A stretch of 64,000 nt of DNA from positions 13,209 through 77,208 of the forward strand of contig CAJWQR010000002.1 of assembly GCA_913045195.1 (NCBI GenBank), read 5' to 3'. A program made the position numbers and the translations under genes. This stretch comes from an uncultured Legionellales bacterium. Its GTDB lineage: Bacteria; Pseudomonadota; Gammaproteobacteria; Eutrophobiales; Eutrophobiaceae. Shown here in pieces: positions 9,873 through 26,219 of the stretch. Below the pieces are notes generated by a model. The model saw only the letters and a list, made by a program, of their open reading frames with translations, was not told the origin of the DNA and did no database searches. Within the stretch, counting starts at the first letter, position 1, and each line of letters opens with the position of its first letter.

Positions 9873-9982
9873 AGTGGTTTACGGTTTAATGTATTATTAT
9901 CAGAAAGTATTATTATAAAAAAATAATGAGAATATTTAGGTTCAATTAATAAGAACTTGTTCCAAATTATTAAGTCTTATAT

Positions 9983-10456: not shown

Positions 10457-10494
10457 TTCACTAATCTAAATTTTAGGATAATTATTAACCCACA

Positions 10495-11355: not shown

Positions 11356-11365
11356 GATTGAATAT

Positions 11366-12184: not shown

Positions 12185-12192
12185 ATATAAAA

Positions 12193-15021
12193 CTATGACC
12201 CGTATAGATATTTAACATCCGACACTCTATTTCCCTTATTTTTATTATTAATCAAATCGCCTGGGCGTTGACCTTTTCGTAATTTTACAGCGCAGTATTT
12301 AAATTCTGGAATTTTTCCAATAGGGTCTAATGCTTCGTTTGTAAGCAGATTAGCCGCTGCCTCATTAAATGAAAATGGCATCATGACAACACCTTTTTGC
12401 ATGCCTTCATCTGCACGTGTTGTCGCTGCAATTTTTCCTCTTCGAGACTCAATGACAAGCATATCCCCAGATTTTAGTGAAAATAATTTAAGATCTTCAG
12501 GATTAATTAATATACATGGCCCTGGTTCGATAGCATCAAGCACTCGTGAATGACGAGTCATTGTTCCGGTGTGCCAATGTTCAAGCTGTCTTCCTGTGAT
12601 AAATACAAATGGGAAATCATTATTGGGAAGTTCAGCAGGTTCCGTGTAATCTGCAGCAATAAAACTTCCCTTTCCGTCTTGAGTTGGAAATATACCATCT
12701 TTAAAAATAATGGGTTCACCAGGGTCGCCAACATTGGTTAATGGGTAGGTGAGTGAGTCAACCTTTTCTAGTCTTTCCCAGGTAATTCCAGCCATACTTG
12801 GTGTCGCAACCCTTATCTCATTAAATACATCTTTTGTAGCCTTATAATTCCAATTAAGACCCATACGATTAGCAATTTCTTGAATGATCCATAAATCTTG
12901 TTTTGCCTCACCAGGTGGCTCAACAGCTTGCCTTCCTAATTGAACACGTCGATCAGTATTTGTAAACGTGCCATCTTTTTCAGGAAATGCAGAAGCAGGT
13001 AATATTACATCGGCATAACCACATGTTTCCGTAAAGAAGATATCTTGAACAACCATATGATCAAGTTTTGAGAGTGCATTTCTAGCGTGATTCAGATTAG
13101 GATCAGACATTGCTGGATTCTCACCCATGACATAAAGCCCATTAATATCTTTGTTGTAAATCGCGTGCATAATTTCCACAATTGTTTTTCCATTATTTGG
13201 GTCTAGTTTTTGACCCCAAAGTTTTTCAAATTTCTTTCTAATTGTAGAATCAGTAACAGGTTGGTAGTCGGGGTAGACCATAGGAATTAAACCTACATCA
13301 GACGCTCCTTGAACATTATTTTGTCCTCGTAAGGGATGTAGCCCCGTACTTTCACGACCAATTTGTCCGGTCATCAGCGCAAGTGAAATTAAACAGCGTG
13401 CATTATCAGTACCATGAATATGTTGGGATATACCCATACCCCAAAATATAATTGATGACCCTGATGTTGCATAAAGTCGAGCGACTTCCTTAATTACATT
13501 TACATCAATTCCACAAATCGGAGATACTTTTTCAGGTGAATAATTTTTAACTGTTTCAATAATTTTTTCAAAGCCATTGGTATGTTCATCAATGAATTTT
13601 TTATTGTGTAAGTTTTCATTGATAATAACGTGCATCATTGCATTTAGTAAAAGCACATCTGTGCCTGGTCGTAATTGTAAGAAATGACTTGAGTGCAGGG
13701 CAATATCAGAGTTATAGGGCTCAATAATAATAAGCTTGCTACCGCGTTCAGATGCATTTTTTAAAAATGTTGCAGCTACTGGATGATTTTCGTGCGGTCT
13801 TGCACCAATAACAATAATAACGTCAGCGTATGAACCGTCTGAAACTTGATTTGATACAGCCCCCGAGCCAATAGTTTCTAGCAAAGCAGCAACAGATGAA
13901 GCATGGCATAATCTTGTACAGTGATCGACGTTATTTGTTCCAAAACCTGATCTAACTAATTTCTGCACTAAATAAGCTTCTTCATTACTTCCTTTAGCAC
14001 AACCAAAACCCGCAAGAGATTGCGAGCTTTTATTATTTTTAATTTTATTAAAACCTTCAGCTGCAAAATTTAATGCTTCATCCCATGTTACCTCACGAAA
14101 AAACTTATGCATATTTTCACGCGTAACTAATTCGGATGTTTTTTTAGAATTTTCTCGCCTAATCATTGGTTTCTTTAAACGATCAGGGTGATGGATATAA
14201 TCAAATCCATAGCGTCCTTTAACGCATAATCGACTTTTATTCGCAGGACCATCTCTACCATCCACATATTGAATGCGATTATTTTTTATATTAAACGAGA
14301 GCAAGCAGCCAACACCACAATAAGGACAAACAGAATCAACTTTTTTATCAGTTTTGACCAAACCAACATTTTTTGCAGGCATTAGTGCACCTGTTGGACA
14401 GGCTTGGACGCATTCACCGCAGGCCACACAGGTACTTTCGCCCATAGGCGCATCCATATCAAAAACAATCTTTGAATGTTTGCCTCGAAAAGCATAACCA
14501 ATAACATCATTTACTTGTTCTTCACGGCATGCGCGTACGCAACGGGTACATTGAATACAGGCGTCGAGATTTACAGCAATTGCAGGATGTGACACATCAT
14601 TACGGATTTTCTCTCTTTCTTCGAAACGAGGATTGTAAAGGGAAAGTTTTTCTGCCCAGTGATCTAGCTCTGAATTAATTTTATAGGGTGACTTTCCTTG
14701 TTGTGGCATGTCTGAAAGCAGTAACTCTAATACCATTTTTTGAGATAAACGAGCTCTCTTATTTGCGCTATTAACCTTCATGCCTTCAGTTGGTTTTCGA
14801 CAGCATGATGGTGCTAGAACACGTTCACCTTCAATTTCAACAACACAGGCACGACAATTACCATCAGAGCGATATCCGTTCTTATAACAAAGATGAGGGA
14901 TTTCTACATTATTGCGTTTAGCAGCTTGGAGAATTGTTTCATCACCAAAAGAGGTGATTTCTTTATTGTCTAAACTAAAGCTTATTATTGTTTCGTTTTC
15001 TTGTTCTGGGTTGGCGGCCAC
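12193..15021 (-). CDS. fdsA: NAD-dependent formate dehydrogenase alpha subunit (molybdopterin, FdsA)
   Basis: 942 aa. N-terminal 2Fe-2S and 4Fe-4S NuoG-like domains (HLCY...CRACVVE; CIQCTRCVRAC). Then a molybdopterin oxidoreductase domain and a C-terminal MGD-binding domain. GTG start; overlaps fdsB by 37 nt. Confidence 0.9.
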   Translation of the reverse strand: MAANPEQENETIISFSLDNKEITSFGDETILQAAKRNNVEIPHLCYKNGYRSDGNCRACVVEIEGERVLAPSCCRKPTEGMKVNSANKRARLSQKMVLELLLSDMPQQGKSPYKINSELDHWAEKLSLYNPRFEEREKIRNDVSHPAIAVNLDACIQCTRCVRACREEQVNDVIGYAFRGKHSKIVFDMDAPMGESTCVACGECVQACPTGALMPAKNVGLVKTDKKVDSVCPYCGVGCLLSFNIKNNRIQYVDGRDGPANKSRLCVKGRYGFDYIHHPDRLKKPMIRRENSKKTSELVTRENMHKFFREVTWDEALNFAAEGFNKIKNNKSSQSLAGFGCAKGSNEEAYLVQKLVRSGFGTNNVDHCTRLCHASSVAALLETIGSGAVSNQVSDGSYADVIIVIGARPHENHPVAATFLKNASERGSKLIIIEPYNSDIALHSSHFLQLRPGTDVLLLNAMMHVIINENLHNKKFIDEHTNGFEKIIETVKNYSPEKVSPICGIDVNVIKEVARLYATSGSSIIFWGMGISQHIHGTDNARCLISLALMTGQIGRESTGLHPLRGQNNVQGASDVGLIPMVYPDYQPVTDSTIRKKFEKLWGQKLDPNNGKTIVEIMHAIYNKDINGLYVMGENPAMSDPNLNHARNALSKLDHMVVQDIFFTETCGYADVILPASAFPEKDGTFTNTDRRVQLGRQAVEPPGEAKQDLWIIQEIANRMGLNWNYKATKDVFNEIRVATPSMAGITWERLEKVDSLTYPLTNVGDPGEPIIFKDGIFPTQDGKGSFIAADYTEPAELPNNDFPFVFITGRQLEHWHTGTMTRHSRVLDAIEPGPCILINPEDLKLFSLKSGDMLVIESRRGKIAATTRADEGMQKGVVMMPFSFNEAAANLLTNEALDPIGKIPEFKYCAVKLRKGQRPGDLINNKNKGNRVSDVKYLYGS

Positions 15022-16688
15022 TTTTCAAATTCCTCAGGAAAATATCTAATCGCACATCTAACTGGGTTTGGCGCCGCCTGCCCTAAACCACATATTGATG
15101 CATCACACATCGCGATAGAAAGTTCTTCTAATAAGTCTTTATCCCATTCCTCTTTTTCCATCAATTGTATCGCTTTTGATGTCCCAACGCGACAAGGAGT
15201 GCATTGGCCGCATGATTCATGCTCAAAAAAGCGCATTGAATTAAGGGCCAGCCCTTTAACTTTGTCTTTATCAGAAAGCACGATTATAGCTGCTGAACCA
15301 ATAAAACAGCCATGTTTTTGTAATGTATCAAAGTCCAATGGCTCATCTCCAAGCGATGCTGGCAAAATTCCGCCCGATGCTCCGCCGGGGTAATAGCCAT
15401 AAAATTTCTGACCATCAAGCATTCCGTCACAATATTCATCTATTAGCTCTTTTATACTGATGCCCGCAGGAGCCAGATGGACTCCAGGTTTTTTAACACG
15501 CCCGCTAACTGAAAATGAGCGGAGACCTTTTCGTTCACGACGACCATTAGATGAAAACCAATTTGGACCTTTTTCAATAATATCTCTAATCCAATGCAGG
15601 GTTTCCATATTCTGTTCTAGAGTAGGGCGTCCAAAAAGTCCAACTTCAGCAACATAGGGAGGACGTAAACGAGGCATACCAGGTTTTCCTTCGATAGATT
15701 CAATCATCGCAGATTCTTCACCACATATGTAAGCCCCTGCTCCTCTTCTTAAATGTATTGTTGGTAGTTTACATGGAGGCATCGTTTTAATTTTATCTAA
15801 TTCTTTTTCTAACAACATCCTGCAGCCCGCATATTCATCTCTTAGATAAATATAAATATCATCTGCTTCAATCGCCCAGTGAGCGATTAGCGTTCCTTCA
15901 ATAAAACGATGCGGATCATTTTCAAGGTAATAACGGTCTTTAAAGGTGCCGGGCTCGCCTTCATCAATGTTAATAGCAATCAATTTAGGTGATTTTTTTT
16001 CACTTAAAATGCGCCATTTTTGACCCGTTGGAAAACCCGCACCACCTAAACCTCTTAACGAAGAGTCCTCAAGTAATTTTATTATATCTTCACGTTTATA
16101 TTTTCCGTCAATACAGTCGATAAGTGTTTTATAGCCACCATTATTTTTGTAAGCATCATAATCAATATAAGATTTAGGTAGTGAGTCCGATAATTTATTT
16201 TTACTAAGCGCAGAAAGAACAGTTTTTACCTCAGCATGTTCTACGGGGTATGTTCCAGTAAGAGCAACCGGTGCCGCAGCACATCTTCCAACACAGGGAA
16301 CAGGTTGAACGCGAATTGTTTTTGAATCTGTTGCTAATTTTAATTCCTTTATTAATTTCTTAGCACCAAACATTTCACAAGTAACCGATTCACAAACACG
16401 TATAGTAATATCTGGAGGAGGAGCTTCTTTTTCATTTATGACATCGAAGTGATGATAAAAAGTTGCTGTTTCATAAACTGCTGCCATAGATAAATTCATT
16501 ATTTTTGCAAGCGCCATAATATGACGACTTGATATGTGGTGATAAGTGTCTTGGATTTTATGCAGGTGTTCTATAAGCATATCTCTCTTAATAGACTCAC
16601 TATCAATTAGTTTTTCTAATTGAGAAATACAATTTTTGTCTATGACTCGACCGGAGATACGACCTTTTTTTCCACGAGTTCTTTTCAT
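14985..16688 (-). CDS. fdsB: Formate dehydrogenase diaphorase subunit, fused FdsG (NuoE-like) + FdsB (NuoF-like)
   Basis: 567 aa. N-terminal thioredoxin-like 2Fe-2S domain (CESVTCEM...CVGRCAAAP). Then a NuoF-like NAD/FMN/4Fe-4S domain (GLRGLGGAGFPTG; ESCGQCTPCR). Confidence 0.85.
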   Translation of the reverse strand: MKRTRGKKGRISGRVIDKNCISQLEKLIDSESIKRDMLIEHLHKIQDTYHHISSRHIMALAKIMNLSMAAVYETATFYHHFDVINEKEAPPPDITIRVCESVTCEMFGAKKLIKELKLATDSKTIRVQPVPCVGRCAAAPVALTGTYPVEHAEVKTVLSALSKNKLSDSLPKSYIDYDAYKNNGGYKTLIDCIDGKYKREDIIKLLEDSSLRGLGGAGFPTGQKWRILSEKKSPKLIAINIDEGEPGTFKDRYYLENDPHRFIEGTLIAHWAIEADDIYIYLRDEYAGCRMLLEKELDKIKTMPPCKLPTIHLRRGAGAYICGEESAMIESIEGKPGMPRLRPPYVAEVGLFGRPTLEQNMETLHWIRDIIEKGPNWFSSNGRRERKGLRSFSVSGRVKKPGVHLAPAGISIKELIDEYCDGMLDGQKFYGYYPGGASGGILPASLGDEPLDFDTLQKHGCFIGSAAIIVLSDKDKVKGLALNSMRFFEHESCGQCTPCRVGTSKAIQLMEKEEWDKDLLEELSIAMCDASICGLGQAAPNPVRCAIRYFPEEFEKWPPTQNKKTKQ

Positions 16689-16701
16689 AATTAGTGGTTG
16701 A

Positions 16702-18084
16702 TTATTTAATTACTGAGAGCATCTCTTCGATGTAAGTGTATTTTTCACGAGGTTTACCTTTAGGTTCTCCGAGTTCTACTTCTTTGTCGTCAATCTGTGA
16801 CCACTCAGAAAAATTGACATGGCGTACATTTCTATTGTTTAGTTTTGCATATATTTCTTTAGTGCCATACTTTTTTTCTCCAGTATCTAATTTTTCTATA
16901 TCATTTAGTAGATTTGCAACTGTTTCTACGCTACAAGCACGGTTAGTTCCGATAATGCCACTTGGCCCACGCTTTATCCAGCCACCAGTATAGAGTTGAT
17001 TAACTATAGTACCGTCATTTTCAGTGACTCTTCCTTTTTCATTTGGGATTGTGCCCCAGCTTTCATGGAAGGGTACACCTGATATTGGAACGCCATGATA
17101 GCCAATGCTACGAAATAATATACCTGTATTAATTTCAAATATTTCATTAGTTCCTTTAGCTGATTGCTTAAAAGGTTCACCGGATAATTCATTTTTTTCG
17201 AGGATTAATTTTTCTATTTGAGTATTTCCAATTATTTCTTGCGGCCCCATTAGAAATCTAAAAAAGCATTTTTTTGATTTACTGGAATCTAACTCGCGTT
17301 TAGAAAATTCACAAAATTGATCATAGACTTTTCTATTAGTCCTATTAGTTTTTTCTTCTAATTCTTTTTTGCTTTCATCATTTAACTGTAAATCATCTTC
17401 AAGAATAATTGGATTACAATCAGATAATTCTCCGAATTCACGTAATTCTTTAGGTGTAAATTTTGCTTGCGCAGGTCCGCGACGTCCGATTACATGGATT
17501 TCTTTTAATTTGCTTTCTGCTAAAACATCTAATGCATGTTGTGCAATATCAGTATGCTTTAATTCGTCAACAGTTTTCGAAAGTATTCTACTAACATCAG
17601 CTGCAACATTACCTTGTCCTATTATGACAGCAACATCTTGAGAGAGGTTAAATTTTAATTCTCTATAATCAGGATGACCATTATACCAACCAACAAATTC
17701 TGTTGCGGTGTGACTCCCTTTGAGATCTTCGCCAGGTACACCAAGTTTTCTATCTGTTTCAGCGCCATATGCAAGAATGACTGCATGATGTGTTTTACGT
17801 AATTCTTCAATAGAAATATCTCTTCCGACCGCTACGTTTGCGATAAGATTAAAATGGGGGCTGTCTGCAATTTTTTTATAGAGATTGATAGCGGTTTTTA
17901 GTTTTGGATGATCTGGTGCAACACCACTTCGAACAAGGCCATAAGGGGAGGGGAGACGTTCAATAATATCCACATCTACTTCAAATTCTGATTTTATCAG
18001 TGCTTCTGCGGCATAAAACCCGCTCGGACCAGAACCTACTATCGCTACTAATAATGGATTTTCACTAGTTCCAAGTTTAGCCAT
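16702..18084 (-). CDS. FprA-type (adrenodoxin-reductase family) NADPH:ferredoxin oxidoreductase
   Basis: 460 aa with an N-terminal FAD Rossmann motif VAIVGSGPSGFYAA and a second NADP motif IIGQGNVAADV. Overall similar to mycobacterial FprA / glutamate-synthase-beta-like reductases. Confidence 0.75.
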   Translation of the reverse strand: MAKLGTSENPLLVAIVGSGPSGFYAAEALIKSEFEVDVDIIERLPSPYGLVRSGVAPDHPKLKTAINLYKKIADSPHFNLIANVAVGRDISIEELRKTHHAVILAYGAETDRKLGVPGEDLKGSHTATEFVGWYNGHPDYRELKFNLSQDVAVIIGQGNVAADVSRILSKTVDELKHTDIAQHALDVLAESKLKEIHVIGRRGPAQAKFTPKELREFGELSDCNPIILEDDLQLNDESKKELEEKTNRTNRKVYDQFCEFSKRELDSSKSKKCFFRFLMGPQEIIGNTQIEKLILEKNELSGEPFKQSAKGTNEIFEINTGILFRSIGYHGVPISGVPFHESWGTIPNEKGRVTENDGTIVNQLYTGGWIKRGPSGIIGTNRACSVETVANLLNDIEKLDTGEKKYGTKEIYAKLNNRNVRHVNFSEWSQIDDKEVELGEPKGKPREKYTYIEEMLSVIK

Positions 18085-18087
18085 AAC

Positions 18088-18335: not shown

Positions 18336-18336
18336 T

Positions 18337-18642: not shown

Positions 18643-18692
18643 CGTTTCCTCCTCTACCTCATTGGGTAGTTCCTCTAGGTGATAGTACTATT

Positions 18693-19511
18693 TTATTTGC
18701 TTTTATTTGTTGATAAAAGGATTTCTCCACGATTTAATTCAACTGAATCACCGCTCCAACGCTCAAAGGAATTATTCAAATATGACGAATCAATTGAAAA
18801 ACCATTTTTTTCTAGATAACTAACATAAAATTTAATAAATGAAGGCTGGTATTCACAATTACGAGAAAATGTGGGAAGTAATTTGGCTTTATTAAAACTA
18901 ATAATAGAACCACGCTTCATTCCAGCCCCCGTCCGTATACCCATCCTACCTAAAACAATGATTGTCCCAGCCAACATGTTAACTCCTGTGAAATCACCGG
19001 AATCTCCTCCAACAGCAATCAAACCTCGACGCATAACATGACCGGTTTCATTTTTCACATTACCATGAACAATGATTTCGCCTCCTTGCATACCAATGGC
19101 GCTTCCACGGTATCCACTACCAGTCATATGACCTGCATTTCCTTTAACTACAATTTTTCCACCTTGCATTTCTGCAGCTAACCAATCAGAAGCATTACCC
19201 TCAATTATAATTTCACCACCCCGCATTCCAGCTCCAGTATGCAAACCAATATTACCTTCCACTGTAATTTTACCAAATGACATTGAAGCACCCACATGTT
19301 TAATATTTGATAAATCACCATCAATATTTATCTCGCCATCGAAGCTTCCATTACATTCAAAAAATTCACCGAGTTCTACTTGTCGATTTCCATGAAAAAC
19401 AGTCATAGCAGTGATTTCATTATTTTTCAAAGATTGTACTATGTCAGGACAAATACAGTCAGCTTCTAATGGTACTTCGGGTTGGGTATGTAATTTAAGA
19501 TGAAGTGGCAT
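18693..19511 (-). CDS. fhcC: Formyltransferase/hydrolase complex subunit C (FwdC homologue)
   Basis: 272 aa of repeated GxxG / G-rich beta-helix repeats (GNIGLHTGAGMRGGEIIIEGNASDW...), typical of FwdC/FhcC and the glutamate-synthase C-terminal domain. Confidence 0.85.
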   Translation of the reverse strand: MPLHLKLHTQPEVPLEADCICPDIVQSLKNNEITAMTVFHGNRQVELGEFFECNGSFDGEINIDGDLSNIKHVGASMSFGKITVEGNIGLHTGAGMRGGEIIIEGNASDWLAAEMQGGKIVVKGNAGHMTGSGYRGSAIGMQGGEIIVHGNVKNETGHVMRRGLIAVGGDSGDFTGVNMLAGTIIVLGRMGIRTGAGMKRGSIISFNKAKLLPTFSRNCEYQPSFIKFYVSYLEKNGFSIDSSYLNNSFERWSGDSVELNRGEILLSTNKSK

Positions 19512-20413
19512 TAGTTTTGACTCTTTTTCATTAATTCGTGTAAGTGAATTTGATACTGACCCAATCCACCACCGTAATTTCCTGCAGTAATTTTTTTAAC
19601 ACCAGGTTTTATGGCAGCTTTAATACCAGCATGCATTGCTTCTTCAACAGCTTGTAATGTTAATCCGTCAATGACTATCTCAAGAACACTATTTATATCA
19701 GCATCAATTTCTGTTTTTTCAACTATACTGGTTAGCGTCGGGCAATAAGCATCATTAGTTGACGCAATCAATGCCTTATATTTGGAGCCAACTTTACTTC
19801 CACTCCTGACGACGCCATTAGGAAAGGGTAATATTATATTTGGTATCTCCCTCATTGCTTTGACAGCTGACTTTGCTGCTTTTAATGCGGTATTTTGATC
19901 TGTTGCCAGAATTAGTATATTACCTCCACCGACTGCTTCTTTTGATTTGAAAATGTCATCAACCAGAAATTCACCGTCCATAACTGGTATACGCCACAAT
20001 CTTTTGTCAGCTATTTTCTTACTGATTTGATAACCATCACCAAAATACCGTAGCTGACCACCAACCACGATTTCACTACCCTCATCTATTCCGCTGTAGC
20101 ATGCCGTACTTGGACAAGTCATAACGCATTGACCAATTCGTTCCACCAAACGCTTTCCTAAATTGTCACTATCCATAGCAAAGAATAAAACGCTGACACC
20201 AGGCCTTAGATCTGGTGAATCTTCTGATGGAATTTCTGTTTCAATACCAGCTTCACATTTACAACCTATTACGGAAGTTGCAAAACCAGTAACAGATTGC
20301 GCAGCCGCCATTGCCCACTCTTTTGTTTCAGCAGTTATAATGATTCGACTTCCGTGCATTTTGAATGCTTCAGCAAATGTGTCGACAATCTCGGTTGATT
20401 TTATCTTCATCAT
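19511..20413 (-). CDS. fhcD: Formylmethanofuran:tetrahydromethanopterin formyltransferase (Ftr/FhcD)
   Basis: 300 aa. Near-colinear match to Ftr (VDTFAEAF, TSVIGC, KYFGDG, VAGGN, PFPGG..SGSK, CPT, GVKKITAGNYGG.LG.Y). Confidence 0.9.
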   Translation of the reverse strand: MMKIKSTEIVDTFAEAFKMHGSRIIITAETKEWAMAAAQSVTGFATSVIGCKCEAGIETEIPSEDSPDLRPGVSVLFFAMDSDNLGKRLVERIGQCVMTCPSTACYSGIDEGSEIVVGGQLRYFGDGYQISKKIADKRLWRIPVMDGEFLVDDIFKSKEAVGGGNILILATDQNTALKAAKSAVKAMREIPNIILPFPNGVVRSGSKVGSKYKALIASTNDAYCPTLTSIVEKTEIDADINSVLEIVIDGLTLQAVEEAMHAGIKAAIKPGVKKITAGNYGGGLGQYQIHLHELMKKSQN

Positions 20414-20418
20414 TAAAT

Positions 20419-22062
20419 TTAACCTGTTTTAATAATTTCGTGATGATCATGTAAATAACGATCATCAACGGCATAATTGGAGAATTCAATCGAATAATAA
20501 CTTTCAAAGAAAGGTTTGAGGGTCTCTTCAATTTTATTATCATATTCTGGTGTTATGTGATAAACCTTACCTTTAGAATCAGTTTTAAATTCATGATTTT
20601 CAATCATTGTATTTCCAGATTTAATGACATAACGAGGTGTGCTGAACATCATTTCCTTGTCATCCATTACATCGTAGATTGTGATATCGGCATCAGCACC
20701 CACACCTAGGTGACCTTTTGTTTCTAGTCCTAAAGCTTTGGCAGGACCCGCTCTTGTAATAATTGCAATTTCATTTAATGTATATTCTCGTTTTAATTCG
20801 GGTAGTGAACACTTCAATAGGGCTTTTTGATTTACTCGCTTCATTTCTTCATGACGAAATTTTTCATCCATTAGGAGTTTAATAAGTTTAGGGTAGGCCA
20901 TAAAAGAACCACCATTCGGATGATCTGTTGATAAAATTATTCTCCAAGGATCTTCCGACAGTAAAAATAATTCCAATCCAATTGCCCATTGAAGCGTGTG
21001 CATATAAATATGTTCCTGATAGGCGAAAGGTAAAATTCCACAACCACTTTCACATTCTGTATCAGCGTTGACCCATTTACCTTTAGAGTGACCCCTTAGA
21101 AGATAGGCTAAGGGAGCATCGGCAGTCATAATTGTTGAGTTACCGAACATTACTTGCCCAACATCACAGGTGATATTTGGATGATTATTTACATACTCAG
21201 CAATTTCAGCAGCCTTTGAGATCGGATTTTTACCAAGCTCTCCCCCATAACTATGAAATTGAATATGGGCAATATGTGCACGTAGGTCGCCTGCTGTTTT
21301 CATAGTCTCAAGTGTTGTCTTATAATTGCCGCTGTGCCCAAGGTTATTACAATGGATGTGGGGCGGATGAGGGTAACCCTGTTTGTTTACGGTTTTTACA
21401 AAAGCTTCAATTATTTGTCGCGGTGATAAATCACCTGCTTCACCAGTTTTTTCATCAATATCAGATACATTGGAATTTCTTTCTCCTTTCCATGGTTCAT
21501 CACCGCCTGGGTTAACTAGTTTAACGGTATATGCTTTGGTAGCGCATACCCACCAAGCAACCGCTTGTTCGAATTCTTCCATGCGCTTCTCACGTATTAA
21601 ATTATGAAGAAAGATATTGTTCCCTAAAAGAACATAAAAGCCCTTATCAATAATTGGTGTGTCCTCGAATTCTTCTAATACATGGCGTGCACCAATTGGC
21701 GAGACAGCTGCTTCCATTGCCGTGGTGTATCCCAATGTTGCATAACGGTAACCCGCAGCAAATGTTGAAGGCGTTGTTCCACCGGAACCCGAACGGGTAA
21801 AAGGAGTTGATGGATGAACATCATGACGACGAGCTTCGGGCATTAATTTTCTAGCGAGATTGACCTTAGGTCCTGCAATATGGCAGTGAATATCAACACC
21901 ACCAGGCATAATAGCCATGCCTTTAGCATCAATAATTGTTGCTTCGTCTGATACAGAATCAACAATCTTTCCGTTTTCTATGCAAATTTCTTTTATTTCA
22001 CCGTTAATATTGTTTTTTGGATCGTATACTTCGCCATTAACGATGCGCATTGACGCAGACAT
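20419..22062 (-). CDS. fhcA: Formyltransferase/hydrolase complex subunit A (FwdA-like amidohydrolase)
   Basis: 547 aa metal-dependent amidohydrolase fold (GGVDIHCHIAGPKVN; HxH and downstream His/Asp ligands), the FwdA/FhcA family. Confidence 0.85.
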   Translation of the reverse strand: MSASMRIVNGEVYDPKNNINGEIKEICIENGKIVDSVSDEATIIDAKGMAIMPGGVDIHCHIAGPKVNLARKLMPEARRHDVHPSTPFTRSGSGGTTPSTFAAGYRYATLGYTTAMEAAVSPIGARHVLEEFEDTPIIDKGFYVLLGNNIFLHNLIREKRMEEFEQAVAWWVCATKAYTVKLVNPGGDEPWKGERNSNVSDIDEKTGEAGDLSPRQIIEAFVKTVNKQGYPHPPHIHCNNLGHSGNYKTTLETMKTAGDLRAHIAHIQFHSYGGELGKNPISKAAEIAEYVNNHPNITCDVGQVMFGNSTIMTADAPLAYLLRGHSKGKWVNADTECESGCGILPFAYQEHIYMHTLQWAIGLELFLLSEDPWRIILSTDHPNGGSFMAYPKLIKLLMDEKFRHEEMKRVNQKALLKCSLPELKREYTLNEIAIITRAGPAKALGLETKGHLGVGADADITIYDVMDDKEMMFSTPRYVIKSGNTMIENHEFKTDSKGKVYHITPEYDNKIEETLKPFFESYYSIEFSNYAVDDRYLHDHHEIIKTG

Positions 22063-22139
22063 CTAATACCCCTCTAGTGATTACTTGCTTATATAAACTA
22101 ATTATTTTCTTAATGCAGTTTAACGCTGGTACATAAGAC

Positions 22140-23540
22140 TTAGAGCGGGTTTACTGCTGCTACTTTTGCTTCGCCAGAAGCACCTCCTGGATGAATTTTC
22201 TTTAAAGTTAATTCGTGCACACGTTTTTTTATTTTTTTAAGTATTGTTTCATCATCAGGGAAAGGTGATTCGAACGCAGGCCTCAATGTAATTGAGACAT
22301 CATCCATACGGTACACCGTTCCACCAGTATTAATACCATAGGTCGCAGTTTTAAATGCGACGTGTGACAATTTTGAAGTTACGGTACTTTTGGTGTCAAG
22401 AGTAATTACAGGAATATTTTTTAAGTGATCGATTGCTTTTTTAGGAAAATTTGATCCTGGATCGCTTGCAATAATTAATGCTGCATCAGCATCACCATTG
22501 GACAGTGTATCAACTGTTGTAAATTCGCCCGGATTAAAACGTGGATAGCCGCGACTAAAATTTACACCAAAAGGATACCCTGTTTGCCAGGCGACCACAT
22601 TATCAGCGCCCGTAACATTCCCATGCCCACGAACTGGTTTTGCTACAAAATGCGTATACTTATTTAGATCAGTAGCAAGTGCGAGCAGGGCGCCTGAGTT
22701 GAAGTGACGTCCTCGGGTCATTGTTAGTCCCATTCCAAAAAACAATACGCCAAAACGACAATTTTTCATACGTTCTGCTAAGTCAGTTAATGTTTCGAGT
22801 GAAACACCAGTTTCTTCTTCTATATTGACACCCCAAAACCATTCTCCTTCATTAGCTGACAATTTATTTCCTTTAACCAAGGCGCGAAGTGCCCAGAGTA
22901 TTTCAAAGTCTTTTCCAGGCTTTGGACGTATTAAAATATCCGCAACACCTGCACTTTTTGTTTTTCTAACATCAACCAATACAACAGTTCGATCTTTTTT
23001 TCCGTTTGGTGTGAACATACCTTTTGGGGTAACTGCATAACGCCCAAAATGCCGAGGATGTGATTCGGCTGGATTACCTCCCCAGTAGATAACTAGATCT
23101 GCACGATTTTTCACTTCTCCTAATGTGCTTGTACTTTCACCGACACCTTGAAAAGCAAGGCCGCTTGGCCCATGACAGACCGAGGTAGTGGTATCAATAT
23201 TACCTTTAATATAGTCCGTGATTGCAACTGCTTCTCGTTGCGCTTCAGAAGTAGTGTCGCTCAGACCATAGGTTATTGGAAATTTCGCTTTTACTAAAGT
23301 TTGCGCAGCTTCTTCAATCGCTTCTTCTATTGTGACTTCTTTACCGTCAATCATTGCAGCAGGCGCATCTTCAATTGTGTGTTCAGCAAACCAAGCACGA
23401 CCTAGAACACAAGCATTTTTAGCTTTTGTGATTCTTTTTTCATCTAGATCAACGTGAAGTTCCATGTCATCACAAACACAACCACAAAATGTACAAGTTG
23501 CATCCTTAACAATCTTAATATTTTCGTTTTCATTTGCCAT
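22140..23540 (-). CDS. fhcB: Formyltransferase/hydrolase complex subunit B (FwdB homologue, molybdopterin-oxidoreductase fold)
   Basis: 466 aa with an N-terminal Cys cluster CTFCGCVCDD, then a molybdopterin oxidoreductase-like fold lacking the MGD C-terminal domain. Confidence 0.85.
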   Translation of the reverse strand: MANENENIKIVKDATCTFCGCVCDDMELHVDLDEKRITKAKNACVLGRAWFAEHTIEDAPAAMIDGKEVTIEEAIEEAAQTLVKAKFPITYGLSDTTSEAQREAVAITDYIKGNIDTTTSVCHGPSGLAFQGVGESTSTLGEVKNRADLVIYWGGNPAESHPRHFGRYAVTPKGMFTPNGKKDRTVVLVDVRKTKSAGVADILIRPKPGKDFEILWALRALVKGNKLSANEGEWFWGVNIEEETGVSLETLTDLAERMKNCRFGVLFFGMGLTMTRGRHFNSGALLALATDLNKYTHFVAKPVRGHGNVTGADNVVAWQTGYPFGVNFSRGYPRFNPGEFTTVDTLSNGDADAALIIASDPGSNFPKKAIDHLKNIPVITLDTKSTVTSKLSHVAFKTATYGINTGGTVYRMDDVSITLRPAFESPFPDDETILKKIKKRVHELTLKKIHPGGASGEAKVAAVNPL

Positions 23541-23573
23541 TAAGCGATCTACCTTTAATAATCCTATCTTTTA

Positions 23574-23918
23574 TTATTTAACTTTTTCAATTTCAACCAT
23601 CATATGTTTTGATAATGGCATACCAGTTCCAGCTGTATCACTTGCCATTAACTGACTTGAGGGCGGCCCATAAGGAATAAACAACAACCCCGCGGATAAA
23701 TCTTCGGGTTTTTTACCAACGCAACTTACTATTGTTTCGCCAATTTCATTCCACATTCGCACTTTATCACCATCAACTAGATCCCTTTTAGCCATATCAT
23801 CTTTATTCATCTCTAATGTTGAGGTGATCTTTTGATACTCATCTTTGAGTTTACCTTGATTCAGAGATGTTCCTTGTTTGCTTGAACGTCCCGGTATAAG
23901 CATCATTTTATCTACCAC
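23574..23918 (-). CDS. FwdD-like small molybdopterin-dinucleotide-binding-domain protein
   Basis: 114 aa. LIPGRS.KQG...GK...Y....LEMNKDDMAKRDLVDGDKV......GE....C......L..GLLFIPYGP......A.DT.GTGMP..K matches the FwdD / MopB C-terminal barrel pattern. It lies immediately upstream of fhcB on the same strand. Confidence 0.6.
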   Translation of the reverse strand: MVDKMMLIPGRSSKQGTSLNQGKLKDEYQKITSTLEMNKDDMAKRDLVDGDKVRMWNEIGETIVSCVGKKPEDLSAGLLFIPYGPPSSQLMASDTAGTGMPLSKHMMVEIEKVK

Positions 23919-24027
23919 AAAGAGCTCTCCTTAATGTCTGTTATTATAACTTCGGTATCTCAATGCCACAACATTCTGTATAATAAGGATTTTTTCTGCT
24001 GAGACTGAGAGTCTCTAATTATATCTT

Positions 24028-25062
24028 ATGGTTACCGATAATAGAAAATTAAATGCTAAATCAAGATATGTCAGCGTAAGAGCTCCAGCACGCCTACATT
24101 TAGGTTTTTTGGATATGCATGGTGGTTTGGGTAGGAAATTTGGTAGTTTAGGTTTATCTATTACCAACGTAGAAACATCAGTTACTGCTAATTATTCCGA
24201 TAACATTGATATTACGGGAATTTTTTTAAAAAGAGCTGAAAATTATGCGGAACAAATCTTATCTCATTTTGGTATTGATGGTGGCGTAGGATTATCGATT
24301 CATTCTGCTATTCCTGAACATGTGGGTCTTGGTTCAGGCACGCAATTATCATTAGCTATTGCAAATGCAATTGTTCATTTGTATCAATTACCAGACTACC
24401 ATCCAGCACATTTAGCAGCAATATTGCATCGGGGTGCCAGATCCGGAATTGGTATTGGTACTTTTATGTATGGCGGATTTGTTGTTGATGGTGGACGAGG
24501 CGAAAAGACCGAAGTTCCGCCAGTAGTCACTCATTTATCTTTTCCTGAGCATTGGAGAATTATCTTAGCGTTTGATGATGGAGTTGAGGGAATTAATGGA
24601 GCGGAAGAGAGACGAGCGTTTAATACACTACCAACAATGAAAAAAGATATATCAGCAACCTTATGCAGACTTACAATGATGAGGGCACTCCCAGCAATTG
24701 CTGAACAAGATTGCAGTCAATTCGGTAGTGCTATAACAGAAATTCAAAATATTATTGGTGATTATTTTTCTATTGCTCAAGGAGGCCGTTACACTTCGCC
24801 ATTTTTAAAATCAATATTAGATGCTATGGGAAATATGGGCGCAACAGGTATGGGGCAAAGCTCATGGGGACCAACTGGTTTTGCAATCTTTCCTAATGAG
24901 ACGATTGCATTTCGGGCACTTAAAAAAATTCGCGATAAATGGAAAGCAGAACCACGTTTGCGGTTTGTTTTAAGTGAAGGGTTTAACCGTCAGGCAGAAA
25001 TTTCCGTAAGTGAGCAACAACCATCTATAAAAAATGAAAATATGAAGGTAAAAAATTTATAG
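24028..25062 (+). CDS. mptG: Beta-ribofuranosylaminobenzene 5'-phosphate synthase (H4MPT biosynthesis, GHMP-kinase-like)
   Basis: 344 aa with a GHMP-kinase-like fold (VRAPARLHLGFLDM...GSLGLSI) typical of beta-RFAP synthase. Lies in the H4MPT gene cluster. Confidence 0.7.
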   Translation: MVTDNRKLNAKSRYVSVRAPARLHLGFLDMHGGLGRKFGSLGLSITNVETSVTANYSDNIDITGIFLKRAENYAEQILSHFGIDGGVGLSIHSAIPEHVGLGSGTQLSLAIANAIVHLYQLPDYHPAHLAAILHRGARSGIGIGTFMYGGFVVDGGRGEKTEVPPVVTHLSFPEHWRIILAFDDGVEGINGAEERRAFNTLPTMKKDISATLCRLTMMRALPAIAEQDCSQFGSAITEIQNIIGDYFSIAQGGRYTSPFLKSILDAMGNMGATGMGQSSWGPTGFAIFPNETIAFRALKKIRDKWKAEPRLRFVLSEGFNRQAEISVSEQQPSIKNENMKVKNL

Positions 25063-25136
25063 CAACCAAAGAACAATATAATAATGGACTTAATGAGCGT
25101 ATTGAATACCTCATAATTGCTAGTTCTGGCAGGGCA

Positions 25137-26219
25137 TTGGCAAATTCTGCAAAAAAAGCAGGCTACAAAGTAGGTGTTATTGATGCATTTCTTGACGAAG
25201 AAACTGTTTCTGTATCTTCATTAGCATTCAAAGCAACTTATAGTTATCAATTTGGTTTTGATATAGTTGAACTTGAAAGGCTAATCAAACAAAAATTCTT
25301 GGATTCTATCGTTGTTGTTGGTTCTGGCTTTGAAATAAATCCAGGACAAATTGACTATATTAGCAAATACGCCTCTGTATTAAGTAATAGCACTGAAACA
25401 ATTAATACTGTTAAGCACCCAAAGTCTTTGGAAAATTTATTAAATGAGGAATTTATTCGCTATCCATTTACAACTTTTCAACGAAATGAATGCGGCGATA
25501 ATAAAACATTCCTATTAAAAGAGATTGGAGCAATGGGAGGTGGACATGTTCAAAGAAAATCTCGACTGTCAAATATACAACCCTTAGTAAATAAAAATTT
25601 TTATTATCAGAAATTTATTGAGGGCAATGTTTTTAGCGCTGTCTTTTTAGCAAATAGAGATAGAGCATCACTAATAGGGCTAAATCAACATTTAAAGTCA
25701 AACCAGTTTTCTGATCAGCCATTTTTGTATGAAGGCGCTATTAGTGTTGTTTTAAAGAATCAAAAAGATGTTAATAAAGTTAATGCAATTATCAATAAAA
25801 TAACAAAAAAAATAAGTTTGGTTGGTCTATGTGGTGTCGATTTTATTATCGATGAGTATGGTGTTATGTTTGTGATTGACGTGAATCCACGCCCGCCATC
25901 AACATTTGAGCTGCATGAATCCAAACAGTCTTTATTTGCAGCGCACCTTGCGTGTTTTCAGGGGGATTTAATTCATTATCTTTCTGATAATAATAAGTAT
26001 TCGAGGGGGCATGCAATTTATTATGCAAAGGAAGATACAATAATTAATGAAGAACTTAATTGGCCGGAATGGGTTAAAGACAGGCCATTAAGAAAGCAAA
26101 CAATAGCTGCCAAAAATCCAATATGCAGTATATTTGCTGAAGGTGATTCAGAAACTCAAGTTGAAAATATACTATATAAACGTTTAGAGGAAATCGAACT
26201 CTTTGTGAAATCAAGATAG
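25137..26219 (+). CDS. ATP-grasp domain protein (H4MPT/methylofuran pathway-associated); 5' boundary uncertain
   Basis: ATP-grasp fold. The annotated TTG start truncates a conserved pre-ATP-grasp N-terminal motif (..EYLIIASSGRALANSAKKAGYKV) that is open in the same frame back to 25038 with no ATG. An ATG at 25084 is in the +1 frame. Confidence 0.6.
   Translation: MANSAKKAGYKVGVIDAFLDEETVSVSSLAFKATYSYQFGFDIVELERLIKQKFLDSIVVVGSGFEINPGQIDYISKYASVLSNSTETINTVKHPKSLENLLNEEFIRYPFTTFQRNECGDNKTFLLKEIGAMGGGHVQRKSRLSNIQPLVNKNFYYQKFIEGNVFSAVFLANRDRASLIGLNQHLKSNQFSDQPFLYEGAISVVLKNQKDVNKVNAIINKITKKISLVGLCGVDFIIDEYGVMFVIDVNPRPPSTFELHESKQSLFAAHLACFQGDLIHYLSDNNKYSRGHAIYYAKEDTIINEELNWPEWVKDRPLRKQTIAAKNPICSIFAEGDSETQVENILYKRLEEIELFVKSR

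What the first reader, a model, noticed from the sequence alone, without database searches (positions are those of the whole stretch)
23574..23918. FwdD-like molybdopterin-dinucleotide-binding-domain protein heading an Fhc (hydrolytic, Mo-free) operon
The 114-aa ORF has the FwdD/MopB C-terminal beta-barrel signature (L.PGR...QG...GK, EMNKDDMAKRDLVDGDKV, FIPYGP, DT.GTGMP). In methanogens FwdD is part of the Mo/W formylmethanofuran dehydrogenase. The Fhc complex as characterised in Methylobacterium has only four subunits (A to D) and no pterin cofactor. A fifth, FwdD-like subunit immediately upstream of fhcB is therefore a candidate extra Fhc component, or a relic of a redox-active ancestor.
Basis: partly seen in the sequence, partly recalled or inferred. 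Interest (0 to 1): 0.5.

Follow-up and report, generated by a model that had tools for sequence, protein, structure and literature searches.

The report
Intact formylmethanofuran dehydrogenase in marine methylotroph
The small gene is a genuine FwdD, but its operon is not a metal-free Fhc: the neighbouring B subunit keeps every catalytic and iron-sulfur residue of archaeal formylmethanofuran dehydrogenase, so this uncultured methylotroph probably oxidises the formyl group straight to CO2.

Summary
ORF 23918-23574 (minus strand, 114 aa) is a FwdD / MopB domain-IV protein by Pfam, by sequence match to solved FwdD chains, and by predicted fold (TM 0.83 to M. wolfeii FwdD). It lies 33 nt upstream of the B-subunit gene.

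The 466-aa B subunit is not the degenerate FhcB scaffold of Methylorubrum. It keeps the CxxCxxxC…C iron-sulfur motif and Cys122-His123 and Arg304, which are M. wolfeii FwdB Cys118, His119 and Arg288. It also keeps 83% of the positions invariant in five solved archaeal FwdB chains. Classic FhcBs keep 38-56% and lack FwdD.

In 79 species-level gammaproteobacterial MAGs the block fwdD-fwdB-fwdA-ftr-fwdC-fdxA-fprA is nearly invariant, and fwdD has dN/dS of 0.03-0.08. More than half of the informative relatives carry a separate classic fhcB set directly downstream, so the two systems are old paralogues.

Best reading: a Mo/W-pterin formyl-methylofuran dehydrogenase with docked formyltransferase. 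I infer that electrons pass to a 7Fe-type ferredoxin and an FprA-type reductase and end on NADP+. No biochemistry exists for this. It is a new variant of a known kind, partly anticipated by automated annotation and by an actinobacterial fwdDBA-ftr-fwdC report.

The parts
23574..23918 (-). fwdD: 114-aa MopB domain-IV subunit that caps the pterin site (the finding itself)
   Evidence: Pfam PF01568 above the gathering score. Matches solved FwdD chains at 1e-13. AlphaFold2 model and Foldseek give TM 0.83 to 5t5m_D. dN/dS 0.03-0.08. 477 homologues, the top 120 at 69-91% identity.
22140..23540 (-). fwdB: 466-aa catalytic Mo/W-bisPGD subunit with an N-terminal [4Fe-4S] motif. Cys16/19/23/44 are at 23495-23409. 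Cys122-His123 are at 23177-23172. Arg304 is at 22631-22629.
   Evidence: TIGR03129 at 503.9 bits. Matches FwdB chains 9sfi_Q 9e-113 and 5t5i_B 6e-103, against FhcB 6s6y_B at 7e-12. The alignment maps C122/H123/R304 onto M. wolfeii C118/H119/R288, and 72 of 87 archaeal-invariant columns are kept. Weak point: Pfam PF00384 scores only 17 bits.
20419..22062 (-). fwdA: 547-aa amidohydrolase subunit (formyl-MFR/MYFR hydrolase/synthase site)
   Evidence: TIGR03121 at 688 bits. Matches archaeal FwdA at 1.5e-143 and M. extorquens FhcA at 2.5e-97. The metal-ligand motifs HCH, VKLVNPGG, HIHCN, HIQFHSYGG and STDHPNGG are present.
19511..20413 (-). ftr/fhcD: 300-aa formylmethanofuran:H4MPT formyltransferase, embedded in the operon as in Fhc
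   Evidence: Pfam FTR + FTR_C and TIGR03119. The best solved match is M. extorquens FhcD at 3.9e-92.
18693..19511 (-). fwdC/fhcC: 272-aa beta-helix subunit whose C-terminal region resembles FhcC
   Evidence: TIGR03122. Alignments to archaeal FwdC stop at about aa 205-227. FhcC 6s6y_C aligns over 20-268, which includes the region that docks FhcD (PMC6926001).
18337..18642 (-). fdxA: 101-aa ferredoxin of the Azotobacter 7Fe type; proposed electron acceptor
   Evidence: NF045490 FdxA at 118 bits, below the 135-bit cutoff. Motifs CxxCxxxxCxxxCP and CxxCxxCxxxCP are present. It follows fwdC in 55 of 57 related loci.
16702..18084 (-). fprA-like: 460-aa NADPH:ferredoxin (adrenodoxin-reductase-type) reductase; proposed link to NADP+
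   Evidence: Matches M. tuberculosis FprA 1lqt_A at 1.2e-99 and adrenodoxin reductase 1cjc_A at 2.5e-94. It follows fdxA in 53 of 53 related loci.
12193..16688 (-). Context, not part of the conserved block: a NuoE/F-fusion gene (14985-16688) and the formate dehydrogenase alpha subunit (12193-15021). These encode an NAD-type Mo/W-FDH directly downstream.
   Evidence: NCBIfam nuoF/nuoE and Fdh-alpha at 771 bits. This neighbour is seen only in the window's closest relatives, 4 of 50 informative loci.
23919..24027 (.). 109-nt divergent intergenic region between fwdD and the beta-RFAP synthase gene (24028-25062, +). This is the presumed promoter region of the operon.
   Evidence: ORF map. The consensus promoter scan was not informative.

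Best explanation
The 114-aa protein is the FwdD subunit, the detached fourth domain of a MopB enzyme. It caps and helps hold a molybdo- or tungsto-bis-pyranopterin cofactor bound by an intact FwdB.

Together with FwdA, FwdC and an operon-encoded formyltransferase it forms a five-subunit complex. This complex combines the redox module of archaeal Fwd/Fmd with the Ftr-docked architecture of bacterial Fhc.

The proposed path has five steps:
1. Ftr moves the formyl group from formyl-H4MPT to methylofuran/methanofuran.
2. FwdA hydrolyses it to formate.
3. Formate is oxidised to CO2 at the FwdB/FwdD metal site.
4. The two electrons leave through the FwdB [4Fe-4S] cluster to the co-encoded 7Fe-type ferredoxin FdxA.
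5. The electrons pass via the FprA-type flavoprotein to NADP+.

Shown here: the identities of the subunits, retention of all catalytic and cluster residues, strong purifying selection, and near-invariant seven-gene synteny. Inferred: cofactor occupancy, direction of the reaction, Ftr docking, and the FdxA-to-FprA-to-NADP+ route. Whether the metal is Mo or W cannot be told from sequence.
For: - FwdD identity rests on Pfam, sequence matches to solved FwdD chains, and fold.
- FwdB matches genuine FwdB at 9e-113 to 1.5e-98 but M. extorquens FhcB only at 7e-12.
- The alignment places window C122/H123/R304 on M. wolfeii C118/H119/R288, the residues that PMC6926001 reports as lost in FhcB.
- 72 of 87 archaeal-invariant FwdB columns are kept. 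Six classic FhcBs keep 33-49 of 87. Nineteen positions shared by archaea and the window type are lost in every classic FhcB.
- Across the related loci, CxFCGxxC is present in 79 of 79, SVCHGP in 79 of 79, and RGHGNV in 74 of 74 where the position is covered.
- fwdD has dN/dS of 0.03-0.08.
- Synteny counts are D->B 78/79, B->A 69/69, A->ftr 60/61, ftr->C 59/59, C->fdxA 55/57 and fdxA->fprA 53/53, while the flanking genes vary.
- The 460-aa protein belongs to the FprA family (1e-99).
- The C subunit aligns with FhcC through the FhcD-docking region, and Ftr is closest to FhcD.
- A classic fhcB-A-D set with no Cys-His and no Arg lies directly after fprA in 26-28 of 50 informative relatives. These include the closest one (L001) and a 2.85-Mb MAG chromosome. 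This argues for two non-redundant complexes.
- The adjacent FDH shows that the organism makes bis-PGD cofactor.
- Thermodynamics from established values: formyl-MFR/CO2 is about -530 mV (PMC11656701), which is downhill to NADP+.
Against: - There are no biochemical, expression or metal data.
- Window-type FwdB scores only 16-17 bits on Pfam PF00384, whereas M. wolfeii FwdB scores 69.6 bits. The general MopB signature is therefore weakened.
- FwdD is below the NCBIfam FwdD cutoff, and FdxA is below its cutoff.
- The FdxA/FprA link rests on gene neighbourhood within one clade only. Planctomycete fwdD clusters lack these genes.
- A complete NAD-type FDH sits next to the operon in this window. That would seem redundant if no free formate were made.
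- Archaeal Fwd/Fmd enzymes are oxygen-sensitive, while these organisms look aerobic (a XoxF-type PQQ methanol/ethanol-family dehydrogenase is present).
- Co-transcription is inferred from short gaps, and the promoter/terminator scan was uninformative.
Confidence: 0.55

Rival explanations
1. The operon encodes a hydrolytic, metal-free Fhc. FwdD is then either an extra structural (fifth) subunit or a decaying relic with no cofactor role.
For: The gene order B-A-ftr-C is that of fhcBADC, and the C subunit and Ftr are Fhc-like. The Pfam MopB signal of the B subunit is weak. An FDH that could consume released formate lies next door.
Against: The B subunit keeps the Fe-S cysteines and Cys-His-Arg, and 83% of archaeal-invariant positions. 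These are exactly the features lost in classic FhcB. FwdD is under strong purifying selection. Classic Fhc clusters never carry FwdD, and many relatives carry a classic set in addition.
Confidence: 0.1
2. The FwdB/FwdD module is cofactor-loaded but works differently from the proposed route. One option is a formate dehydrogenase or CO2 reductase acting on free formate as a valve between formate and CO2. Another is operation in the reductive direction, CO2 to formyl-MYFR, under some conditions.
For: Fwd/Fmd chemistry is reversible and proceeds via formate in an internal tunnel (PMC6926001 and PMC11656701). FDH and an oxalate/formate-family MFS transporter are in the window. M. acetivorans FwdDBAC has been linked to formate production, as cited in PMC7325909.
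Against: The only conserved redox partners are an FprA-type NADPH reductase and a simple ferredoxin. NADPH at about -320 mV cannot drive CO2 reduction at about -530 mV without bifurcation, and no such module is present. The surrounding island is built for oxidative H4MPT-linked C1 metabolism: Fae, Mch and a XoxF-type PQQ dehydrogenase are present.
Confidence: 0.15
3. The complex is redox-active, but FdxA and FprA are not its partners. They would be housekeeping neighbours, and electrons would go to another acceptor such as a quinone-linked system, another ferredoxin, or the neighbouring NuoEF-like diaphorase.
For: The neighbourhood evidence comes from one clade only. Planctomycete fwdD clusters and locus L051 lack fdxA-fprA. 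The window has a 252-nt gap between fdxA and fprA. The NuoEF-like gene starts 13 nt after fprA.
Against: fdxA follows fwdC in 55 of 57 loci and fprA follows fdxA in 53 of 53, while both flanks of the seven-gene block vary. NuoEF/FDH follows in only 4 of 50 loci.
Confidence: 0.2

Closest known systems
Archaeal tungsten/molybdenum formylmethanofuran dehydrogenase FwdABCD(FG), e.g. Methanothermobacter wolfeii (PDB 5T5I)
   Same: FwdD is a separate domain-IV subunit. FwdB has the N-terminal [4Fe-4S] motif and Cys118/His119/Arg288 equivalents. FwdA has the binuclear-metal ligands and FwdC is a beta-helix. The HMMER E-value to FwdB is about 1e-103, and A-subunit identity is about 45%.
   Different: There is no FwdE, FwdF or FwdG polyferredoxin. 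A formyltransferase gene is embedded in the operon, and the C subunit has an Fhc-like C-terminus. The predicted partners are FdxA and FprA. The host is a bacterium that appears aerobic, and the direction is presumably oxidative.
Formyltransferase/hydrolase complex FhcABCD of Methylorubrum extorquens (PDB 6S6Y) and classic fhcBADC clusters of cultured Proteobacteria
   Same: The gene order is B-A-ftr-C, inside an H4MPT/methylofuran gene island. Ftr is closest to FhcD, and the C subunit aligns with FhcC to its end. In an NJ tree the A subunits group with bacterial FhcA against three archaeal FwdA sequences (100% bootstrap for the split).
   Different: Classic FhcB has lost Cys-His, Arg and (in M. 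extorquens) the Fe-S domain, and classic clusters have no FwdD. Here all of these are kept. The two types share only 26-30% (B) and about 45% (A) identity, and they coexist in tandem in many relatives.
F420-reducing formylmethanofuran dehydrogenase of Candidatus Ethanoperedens thermophilum (PDB 8RJA)
   Same: This is a Fwd/Fmd core working in the oxidative direction, with a non-canonical and thermodynamically favourable electron outlet (PMC11656701). Its A and B subunits are among the window's best solved matches.
   Different: The outlet there is an electronically connected F420 reductase in an anaerobic archaeon. Here it would be a soluble ferredoxin plus an NADPH reductase. This is an inference from synteny only.
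fwdDBA-ftr-fwdC operon reported in anaerobic Actinobacteria single-cell genomes (Merino et al. 2020, PMC7325909)
   Same: The five-gene order is the same. An N-terminal [4Fe-4S] domain and catalytic Cys118 were noted there in a bacterial FwdB.
   Different: Those genomes lacked methanopterin biosynthesis genes and were discussed in a Wood-Ljungdahl/CO context. Here the operon sits in a complete H4MPT/methylofuran methylotrophy island. It carries fdxA-fprA and is often paired with a classic Fhc.
Mycobacterium tuberculosis FprA (PDB 1LQT) with 7Fe ferredoxin
   Same: The 460-aa protein matches FprA at 1.2e-99 over its full length. The adjacent ferredoxin has the Azotobacter/mycobacterial 7Fe-type cysteine pattern. 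That FprA uses a 7Fe ferredoxin is from my own recollection of the literature and was not checked here.
   Different: FprA is known as an NADPH-to-ferredoxin donor for P450-type systems. Here the pair would run from ferredoxin to NADP+, downstream of a C1 dehydrogenase.

Membership tests
FwdD / MopB domain IV (molybdopterin dinucleotide-binding domain) | Match to Pfam PF01568 above the gathering score | tested here: met
   40.9 bits against a 26.8-bit cutoff, residues 6-91.
FwdD / MopB domain IV (molybdopterin dinucleotide-binding domain) | Match to the curated NCBIfam FwdD model NF042908 above its cutoff | tested here: not met
   73.1 bits against a 175-bit cutoff, although E is 2e-20 over nearly the whole model. 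The model is an 'exception' type built for archaeal tungsten FwdD.
FwdD / MopB domain IV (molybdopterin dinucleotide-binding domain) | Double-psi beta-barrel fold superposable on solved FwdD | tested here: met
   AlphaFold2 model with pLDDT 80.8. Foldseek TM 0.83 and E 3.7e-10 to 5t5m_D, and FwdD chains take the top seven ranks.
FwdD / MopB domain IV (molybdopterin dinucleotide-binding domain) | Encoded next to a FwdB that supplies domains I-III and the metal ligand | tested here: met
   33-nt gap to fwdB. FwdB keeps Cys122/His123/Arg304. Adjacency holds in 78 of 79 genomes.
FwdD / MopB domain IV (molybdopterin dinucleotide-binding domain) | Contacts a bis-pyranopterin guanine dinucleotide cofactor | not testable with these tools
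   Needs metal and cofactor analysis or a structure of the complex.
Formylmethanofuran dehydrogenase (Fwd/Fmd) | FwdB N-terminal [4Fe-4S] cysteine motif | tested here: met
   C16-x2-C19-x3-C23 ... C44 aligns with the M. wolfeii motif. CxFCGxxC is present in 79 of 79 relatives.
Formylmethanofuran dehydrogenase (Fwd/Fmd) | Catalytic Cys/Sec118, His119 and Arg288 (M. wolfeii numbering) | tested here: met
   Window C122, H123 and R304 map to these residues. They are invariant in the relatives.
Formylmethanofuran dehydrogenase (Fwd/Fmd) | FwdA amidohydrolase with binuclear metal ligands, plus a FwdC beta-helix | tested here: met
   TIGR03121 at 688 bits and TIGR03122 at 259 bits. Ligand motifs are conserved in the alignment to 5t5i_A.
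Formylmethanofuran dehydrogenase (Fwd/Fmd) | Dedicated polyferredoxin or other electron-input subunits (FwdF/FwdG) | tested here: not met
   No such genes are in the operon. FdxA and FprA-like genes are there instead.
Formylmethanofuran dehydrogenase (Fwd/Fmd) | Redox interconversion of CO2 + MFR and formyl-MFR | not testable with these tools
   Needs an enzyme assay.
Formyltransferase/hydrolase complex (Fhc) | Gene order fhcB-A-D-C with the formyltransferase embedded | tested here: met
   The order B-A-ftr-C follows fwdD. The classic clusters in L081, L082 and L084-L086 have the same order.
Formyltransferase/hydrolase complex (Fhc) | B subunit is a scaffold without pterin or metal ligands (Cys118 replaced by Ser, His119 and Arg288 lost) | tested here: not met
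   All three residues are retained. The feature is as described in PMC6926001.
Formyltransferase/hydrolase complex (Fhc) | Absence of the fourth MopB domain (no FwdD) | tested here: not met
   FwdD is present and conserved. It is absent from every plasmid/chromid record, including those that carry fhc genes.
Formyltransferase/hydrolase complex (Fhc) | FhcC C-terminal helix-loop-helix that docks FhcD | tested here: inconclusive
   Sequence aligns with 6s6y_C through chain residue 264, whereas archaeal FwdC alignments end at about 205-227. No structural test of docking was done.
Formyltransferase/hydrolase complex (Fhc) | Releases free formate and has no dehydrogenase activity | not testable with these tools
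   Needs an enzyme assay.
FprA/adrenodoxin-reductase-type NADPH:ferredoxin reductase with 7Fe FdxA | Full-length homology of the 460-aa protein to FprA/AdR | tested here: met
   1lqt_A at 1.2e-99 over residues 10-457, and 1cjc_A at 2.5e-94.
FprA/adrenodoxin-reductase-type NADPH:ferredoxin reductase with 7Fe FdxA | Ferredoxin meets the curated FdxA model | tested here: inconclusive
   NF045490 scores 118.1 bits against a 135-bit cutoff. The cysteine pattern of the 7Fe type is present.

The most novel reading that the evidence does not exclude
A broad, uncultured clade of gammaproteobacterial methylotrophs has kept a working Mo/W-pterin formyl-methylofuran dehydrogenase. The clade includes abundant low-GC marine lineages, sponge-associated MAGs and the atmospheric-methane oxidiser USC-gamma. 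The enzyme is fused functionally to the formyltransferase and wired through FdxA and FprA to make NADPH. It often sits beside the classic Fhc. If so, it would be the first Fwd/Fmd-type enzyme of aerobic bacteria. It would be a second, formate-free exit of the H4MPT pathway. It would also be a living intermediate showing that Ftr docking came before loss of the dehydrogenase on the way from archaeal Fwd to bacterial Fhc.
Probability: 0.4. Interest if true: 0.8.

Novelty: new variant of a known kind. Interest (0 to 1): 0.6.

Why it matters
Textbook bacterial methylotrophy ends the H4MPT pathway with Fhc. Fhc is described as a cofactor-less relative of archaeal formylmethanofuran dehydrogenase that releases formate, and as the only known bacterial enzyme using methylofuran (PMC6926001).

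An intact dehydrogenase version in environmentally abundant methylotrophs would change three things. It would alter carbon and redox bookkeeping, giving direct CO2 and NADPH instead of formate and NADH. It would add a Mo/W requirement to these organisms' C1 oxidation. It would also supply an extant intermediate for the proposed Fwd-to-Fhc evolutionary path, which makes the order of those steps testable.

The tandem occurrence of both complexes in single genomes offers a natural system for asking why both are kept.

Tried and rejected
- The promoter and terminator consensus scan of 12000-24200 gave counts no different from shuffles and only intragenic minus-strand terminator-like sites. I did not use it.
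- The first attempt to scan genomes with a 17-sequence FwdD alignment failed because it had no conserved stretch. I repeated it with 8 sequences.
- I looked for cultured organisms that carry the FwdD-type cluster and found none. The 80 best of 204 genome hits are all MAGs, and the plasmid/chromid database has no FwdD. Papers on Methylocaldum and Methylophaga list only fwdABC/fhcABCD. The other 124 genome hits were not visible, so an isolate may exist.
- Literature searches for fwdD/fhcB, Fhc plus molybdopterin, USC-gamma, UBA4486 and related terms found no description of this gammaproteobacterial system.
- The most relevant evolutionary survey (Adam, Borrel and Gribaldo 2019, Nat Microbiol) is not held. 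It may already list FwdD in bacteria.
- I considered selenocysteine in the window FwdB and rejected it, because the codon is TGT.
- I considered recent duplication as the origin of the two sets in relatives and rejected it. The A copies share only 46% identity and fall in different, well-supported groups.
- No Moco-biosynthesis or Mo/W-transport genes are in the 64-kb window. Nothing can be concluded from that.
- I did not attempt a B-subunit tree, because classic FhcB is too divergent to place reliably.
Full report
**1. The observation**

The minus strand carries an ORF at 23918..23574 of 114 aa with a GTG start. An AAGGAG ribosome-binding site lies 8 nt upstream (sequence).

- The protein passes the Pfam gathering score for the molybdopterin dinucleotide-binding domain PF01568: 40.9 bits against 26.8.
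- It matches the NCBIfam FwdD model over almost its whole length (E 2e-20). At 73 bits it is below that model's strict 175-bit cutoff.
- Its best solved relatives are all FwdD chains: 9sfi_S at 1e-13, then 2ki8_A, 5t5i_D, 8rja_D and 7bkb_J.
- An AlphaFold2 model (mean pLDDT 80.8) superposes on M. wolfeii FwdD with TM 0.83. Domain IV of formate dehydrogenases, DMSO reductases and nitrate reductases comes only after the FwdD chains.

**2. The operon**

Downstream on the same strand lie, in order:

| Gene | Size | Gap to previous gene |
|---|---|---|
| B subunit | 466 aa | 33 nt |
| A subunit | 547 aa | 77 nt |
| formyltransferase | 300 aa | 5 nt |
| C subunit | 272 aa | 1-nt overlap |
| ferredoxin | 101 aa | 50 nt |
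| flavoprotein | 460 aa | 252 nt |

After these come a NuoE/F-fusion gene and a 942-aa formate dehydrogenase alpha subunit.

The other strand holds the H4MPT/methylofuran island: beta-RFAP synthase, ATP-grasp ligases, Mch, MptN-like, Fae, MfnD/E/F-like and PabB. A XoxF-type PQQ dehydrogenase cluster lies further on. The window has 35.8% G+C. The exact FwdD protein occurs on at least 22 metagenomic contigs, including Tara Oceans assemblies. The source is therefore an uncultured marine methylotroph.

**3.

The B subunit does not fit that assumption.

- It matches genuine FwdB/FmdB chains at 9e-113 to 1.5e-98 over its full length. It matches M. extorquens FhcB (6s6y_B) only at 7e-12, and only over residues 251-410.
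- Hemmann et al. (PMC6926001) define the loss of dehydrogenase function in FhcB by four features. Cys118 is replaced by Ser. His119 and Arg288 are lost. The N-terminal [4Fe-4S] domain is lost. [quoted passage not shown]
- In my alignment, window residues C122, H123 and R304 fall exactly on M. wolfeii C118, H119 and R288. The motif C16-x2-C19-x3-C23…C44 is also present.
- Of 87 columns invariant in five solved archaeal FwdB chains, the window protein keeps 72 (83%). Six classic FhcBs keep 33-49 (38-56%).
- Nineteen positions invariant in archaea and in all eight window-type sequences are lost in every classic FhcB. These include C, H, G and P of the active-site loop, and R304/H306.

One caution applies. 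The window-type FwdB scores only about 17 bits on Pfam PF00384, whereas M. wolfeii FwdB scores 69.6. The general family signature is weakened even though the specific residues are kept.

**4. Comparators**

- Thirty-eight plasmid/chromid records carry fhcA-like genes. Hosts include Azospirillum, Paraburkholderia, Thiodictyon, Azoarcus, Aquabacterium, Methylocystis and Rhizobium. None of the 72,556 records has a FwdD match.
- Of six annotated regions inspected, five show classic fhcB-A-D-C with no fwdD, fdxA or fprA. The Methylocystis record lists only an fhcA gene there.
- Their FhcBs have replaced SVCHGPS by sequences such as AADALFRN, and RGHxNV by LAGTLG or LGGGDG.
- Published genome descriptions of cultured gammaproteobacterial methylotrophs list only fwdABC/fhcABCD.

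**5. Distribution and conservation**

- FwdD has 477 database homologues. The best 120 are 69-91% identical, and JGI already labels several 'formylmethanofuran dehydrogenase subunit D'.
- A scan of one genome per GTDB species found 204 relatives. The best 80 are all MAGs, nearly all labelled as Gammaproteobacteria (two carry other phylum labels). They include a USC-gamma genome, UBA4486 and sponge-associated bins.
- Gene-order counts are fwdD->fwdB 78/79, fwdB->fwdA 69/69, fwdA->ftr 60/61, ftr->fwdC 59/59, fwdC->fdxA 55/57 and fdxA->fprA 53/53.
- The Fe-S motif (79/79), SVCHGP (79/79) and RGHGNV (74/74 covered) are invariant.
- fwdD has dN/dS of 0.03-0.08 against relatives where dS could be estimated.
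- The flanks vary. After fprA comes a classic fhcB in 26-28 of 50 informative loci, the NuoEF/FDH pair in 4 (the window's nearest kin), and other genes in the rest.

The seven genes therefore behave as one module.

**6. Two systems in one genome**

In a 2.85-Mb MAG chromosome (L087) the module is followed at once by fhcB (424 aa), fhcA (551 aa) and fhcD. The second fhcB copies of six relatives that I translated lack Cys-His and Arg. The two A subunits share 46% identity.

In an NJ tree:
- All bacterial A subunits separate from three archaeal FwdA sequences (100% bootstrap for the split).
- The classic FhcA sequences form a 100% clade.
- The window type is sister or basal to that clade, with monophyly supported at only 38%.

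The FwdD-containing set is therefore an old bacterial lineage of the Fwd/Fhc family that never lost the redox module. It is not a recent archaeal import or a recent duplicate. This tree is small and distance-based, so it is only indicative.

**7. Fhc-like traits**

- Ftr is encoded between A and C, as in fhcBADC.
- Its best solved match is M. extorquens FhcD at 3.9e-92, against about 1e-85 for archaeal Ftr.
- Alignments of the C subunit with archaeal FwdC end at about residue 205-227. FhcC aligns to residue 268, across the region that in the crystal structure forms the helix-loop-helix platform for FhcD (PMC6926001).

I infer, but have not shown, that Ftr is docked as in Fhc.

**8. Electron outlet**

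- The 460-aa protein is an FprA/adrenodoxin-reductase-type NADPH:ferredoxin reductase (1lqt_A at 1.2e-99).
- The ferredoxin has the Azotobacter 7Fe cysteine pattern and nearly reaches the FdxA model cutoff, at 118 bits against 135.
- The formyl-MFR/CO2 couple lies near -530 mV (PMC11656701). Electron flow from the FwdB cluster through FdxA and FprA to NADP+ would therefore be strongly downhill. The reverse direction would not be feasible without bifurcation.
- The closest functional precedent is the F420-reducing Fmd of Ca. Ethanoperedens, a Fwd core with a non-canonical, favourable outlet in an oxidative pathway.
- This route rests on synteny alone. Planctomycete fwdD clusters lack these two genes.

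**9. Prior knowledge**

- Wells et al. 2023 counted 149 bacterial FwdB representatives without functional analysis (PMC10100899).
- Merino et al. 2020 described fwdDBA-ftr-fwdC with Cys118 in anaerobic Actinobacteria that lack methanopterin genes (PMC7325909).
- I found no description of the gammaproteobacterial module, of its fdxA-fprA extension, or of its tandem pairing with classic Fhc.
- I could not read Adam et al. 2019, which may cover part of this.

**10. Verdict**

The ORF is FwdD. Together with an intact FwdB it marks a probably redox-active formyl-methylofuran dehydrogenase/formyltransferase complex, not a fifth wheel on a metal-free Fhc. It is a new variant of a known kind. It is of real interest to C1 biochemistry and evolution, but so far it rests on sequence and synteny only.

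Noticed in passing
L093 9692-11056 (TGA at 10070-10072); L092 9682-11019 (TGA at 10027-10029): In Planctomycete-type contigs, which carry PSCyt/PSD-domain genes, a more distant FwdD (42-43% identity) precedes a fwdB that gene callers split into two ORFs. The split is an in-frame TGA exactly at the catalytic Cys118 position (…DSHTSL-TGA-HGPTEIAAQLGG…). A conserved hairpin, GC(C/U)GCCC-AGUU-GGGUGG(U/C), begins about 21 nt downstream. This looks like a selenocysteine FwdB with a bacterial SECIS. Read through, the protein keeps 72 of 87 archaeal-invariant positions.
   Followed up: partly
L087 17147-20336; also L001, L008-L010, L012-L014, L017, L018, L020 and others: A complete classic fhcB-fhcA-fhcD… set, with no Cys-His, no Arg and no fwdD, lies directly after fprA in 26-28 of 50 informative relatives. 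Many genomes therefore carry both complexes in tandem. The 64-kb window has only the FwdD type, with an FDH in that position.
   Followed up: partly
L081 4287-5585, L082 4724-6001, L084 3626-4978, L085 3514-4992, L086 3712-5001: Classic FhcBs of cultured alpha-, beta- and gammaproteobacteria are 425-492 aa and still carry the N-terminal CPFCxxxCDD…C motif, although the catalytic residues are gone. M. extorquens FhcB (361 aa) lacks the whole N-terminal domain. A non-catalytic scaffold may therefore still hold an Fe-S cluster in many bacteria.
   Followed up: no
window 6212-12184: The PQQ methanol/ethanol-family dehydrogenase cluster has four notable genes: a SoxYZ-like 'quinoprotein dehydrogenase-associated carrier' (6212-7072, -), the dehydrogenase (7876-9813), a 157-aa cupredoxin/pseudoazurin-like protein (9983-10456) where a XoxG cytochrome c is usual, and a MoxJ/XoxJ-like protein (10495-11355).
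   Followed up: no
window 24028-26219 compared with L087 7809-8726: A relative has a PF09176 (methylene-H4MPT dehydrogenase N-terminal domain) gene between the RFAP synthase and the ATP-grasp gene. The window and its near-identical contigs have no such gene there, and none was seen among the ORFs I annotated in the 64 kb.
   Followed up: no
window 22830-22880 (FwdB residues about 227-237): Window FwdB has an 11-residue insertion (SANEGEWFWGV) relative to M. wolfeii FwdB and to the classic FhcBs in the same alignment. Its role is unknown; it could be a partner-docking surface.
   Followed up: no
window 12193-16688: The NuoE/F-fusion gene (567 aa) starts 13 nt after fprA and overlaps the 942-aa FDH alpha subunit gene by 37 nt. 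In this lineage an NAD-type Mo/W formate dehydrogenase is therefore packed directly behind the fwd-fdxA-fprA block.
   Followed up: partly
window 58657-60342: A 561-aa MFS transporter of the oxalate/formate antiporter or L-lactate transporter family lies in the window. It is possibly relevant to formate exchange.
   Followed up: no
L051 (MAG labelled Anaerolineae) and L031 (labelled Gemmatimonadota): Two loci with 67-71% FwdD identity to the window carry non-gammaproteobacterial MAG labels. L051 has mch instead of fdxA-fprA after fwdC. The cause could be mis-binning or lateral transfer.
   Followed up: no
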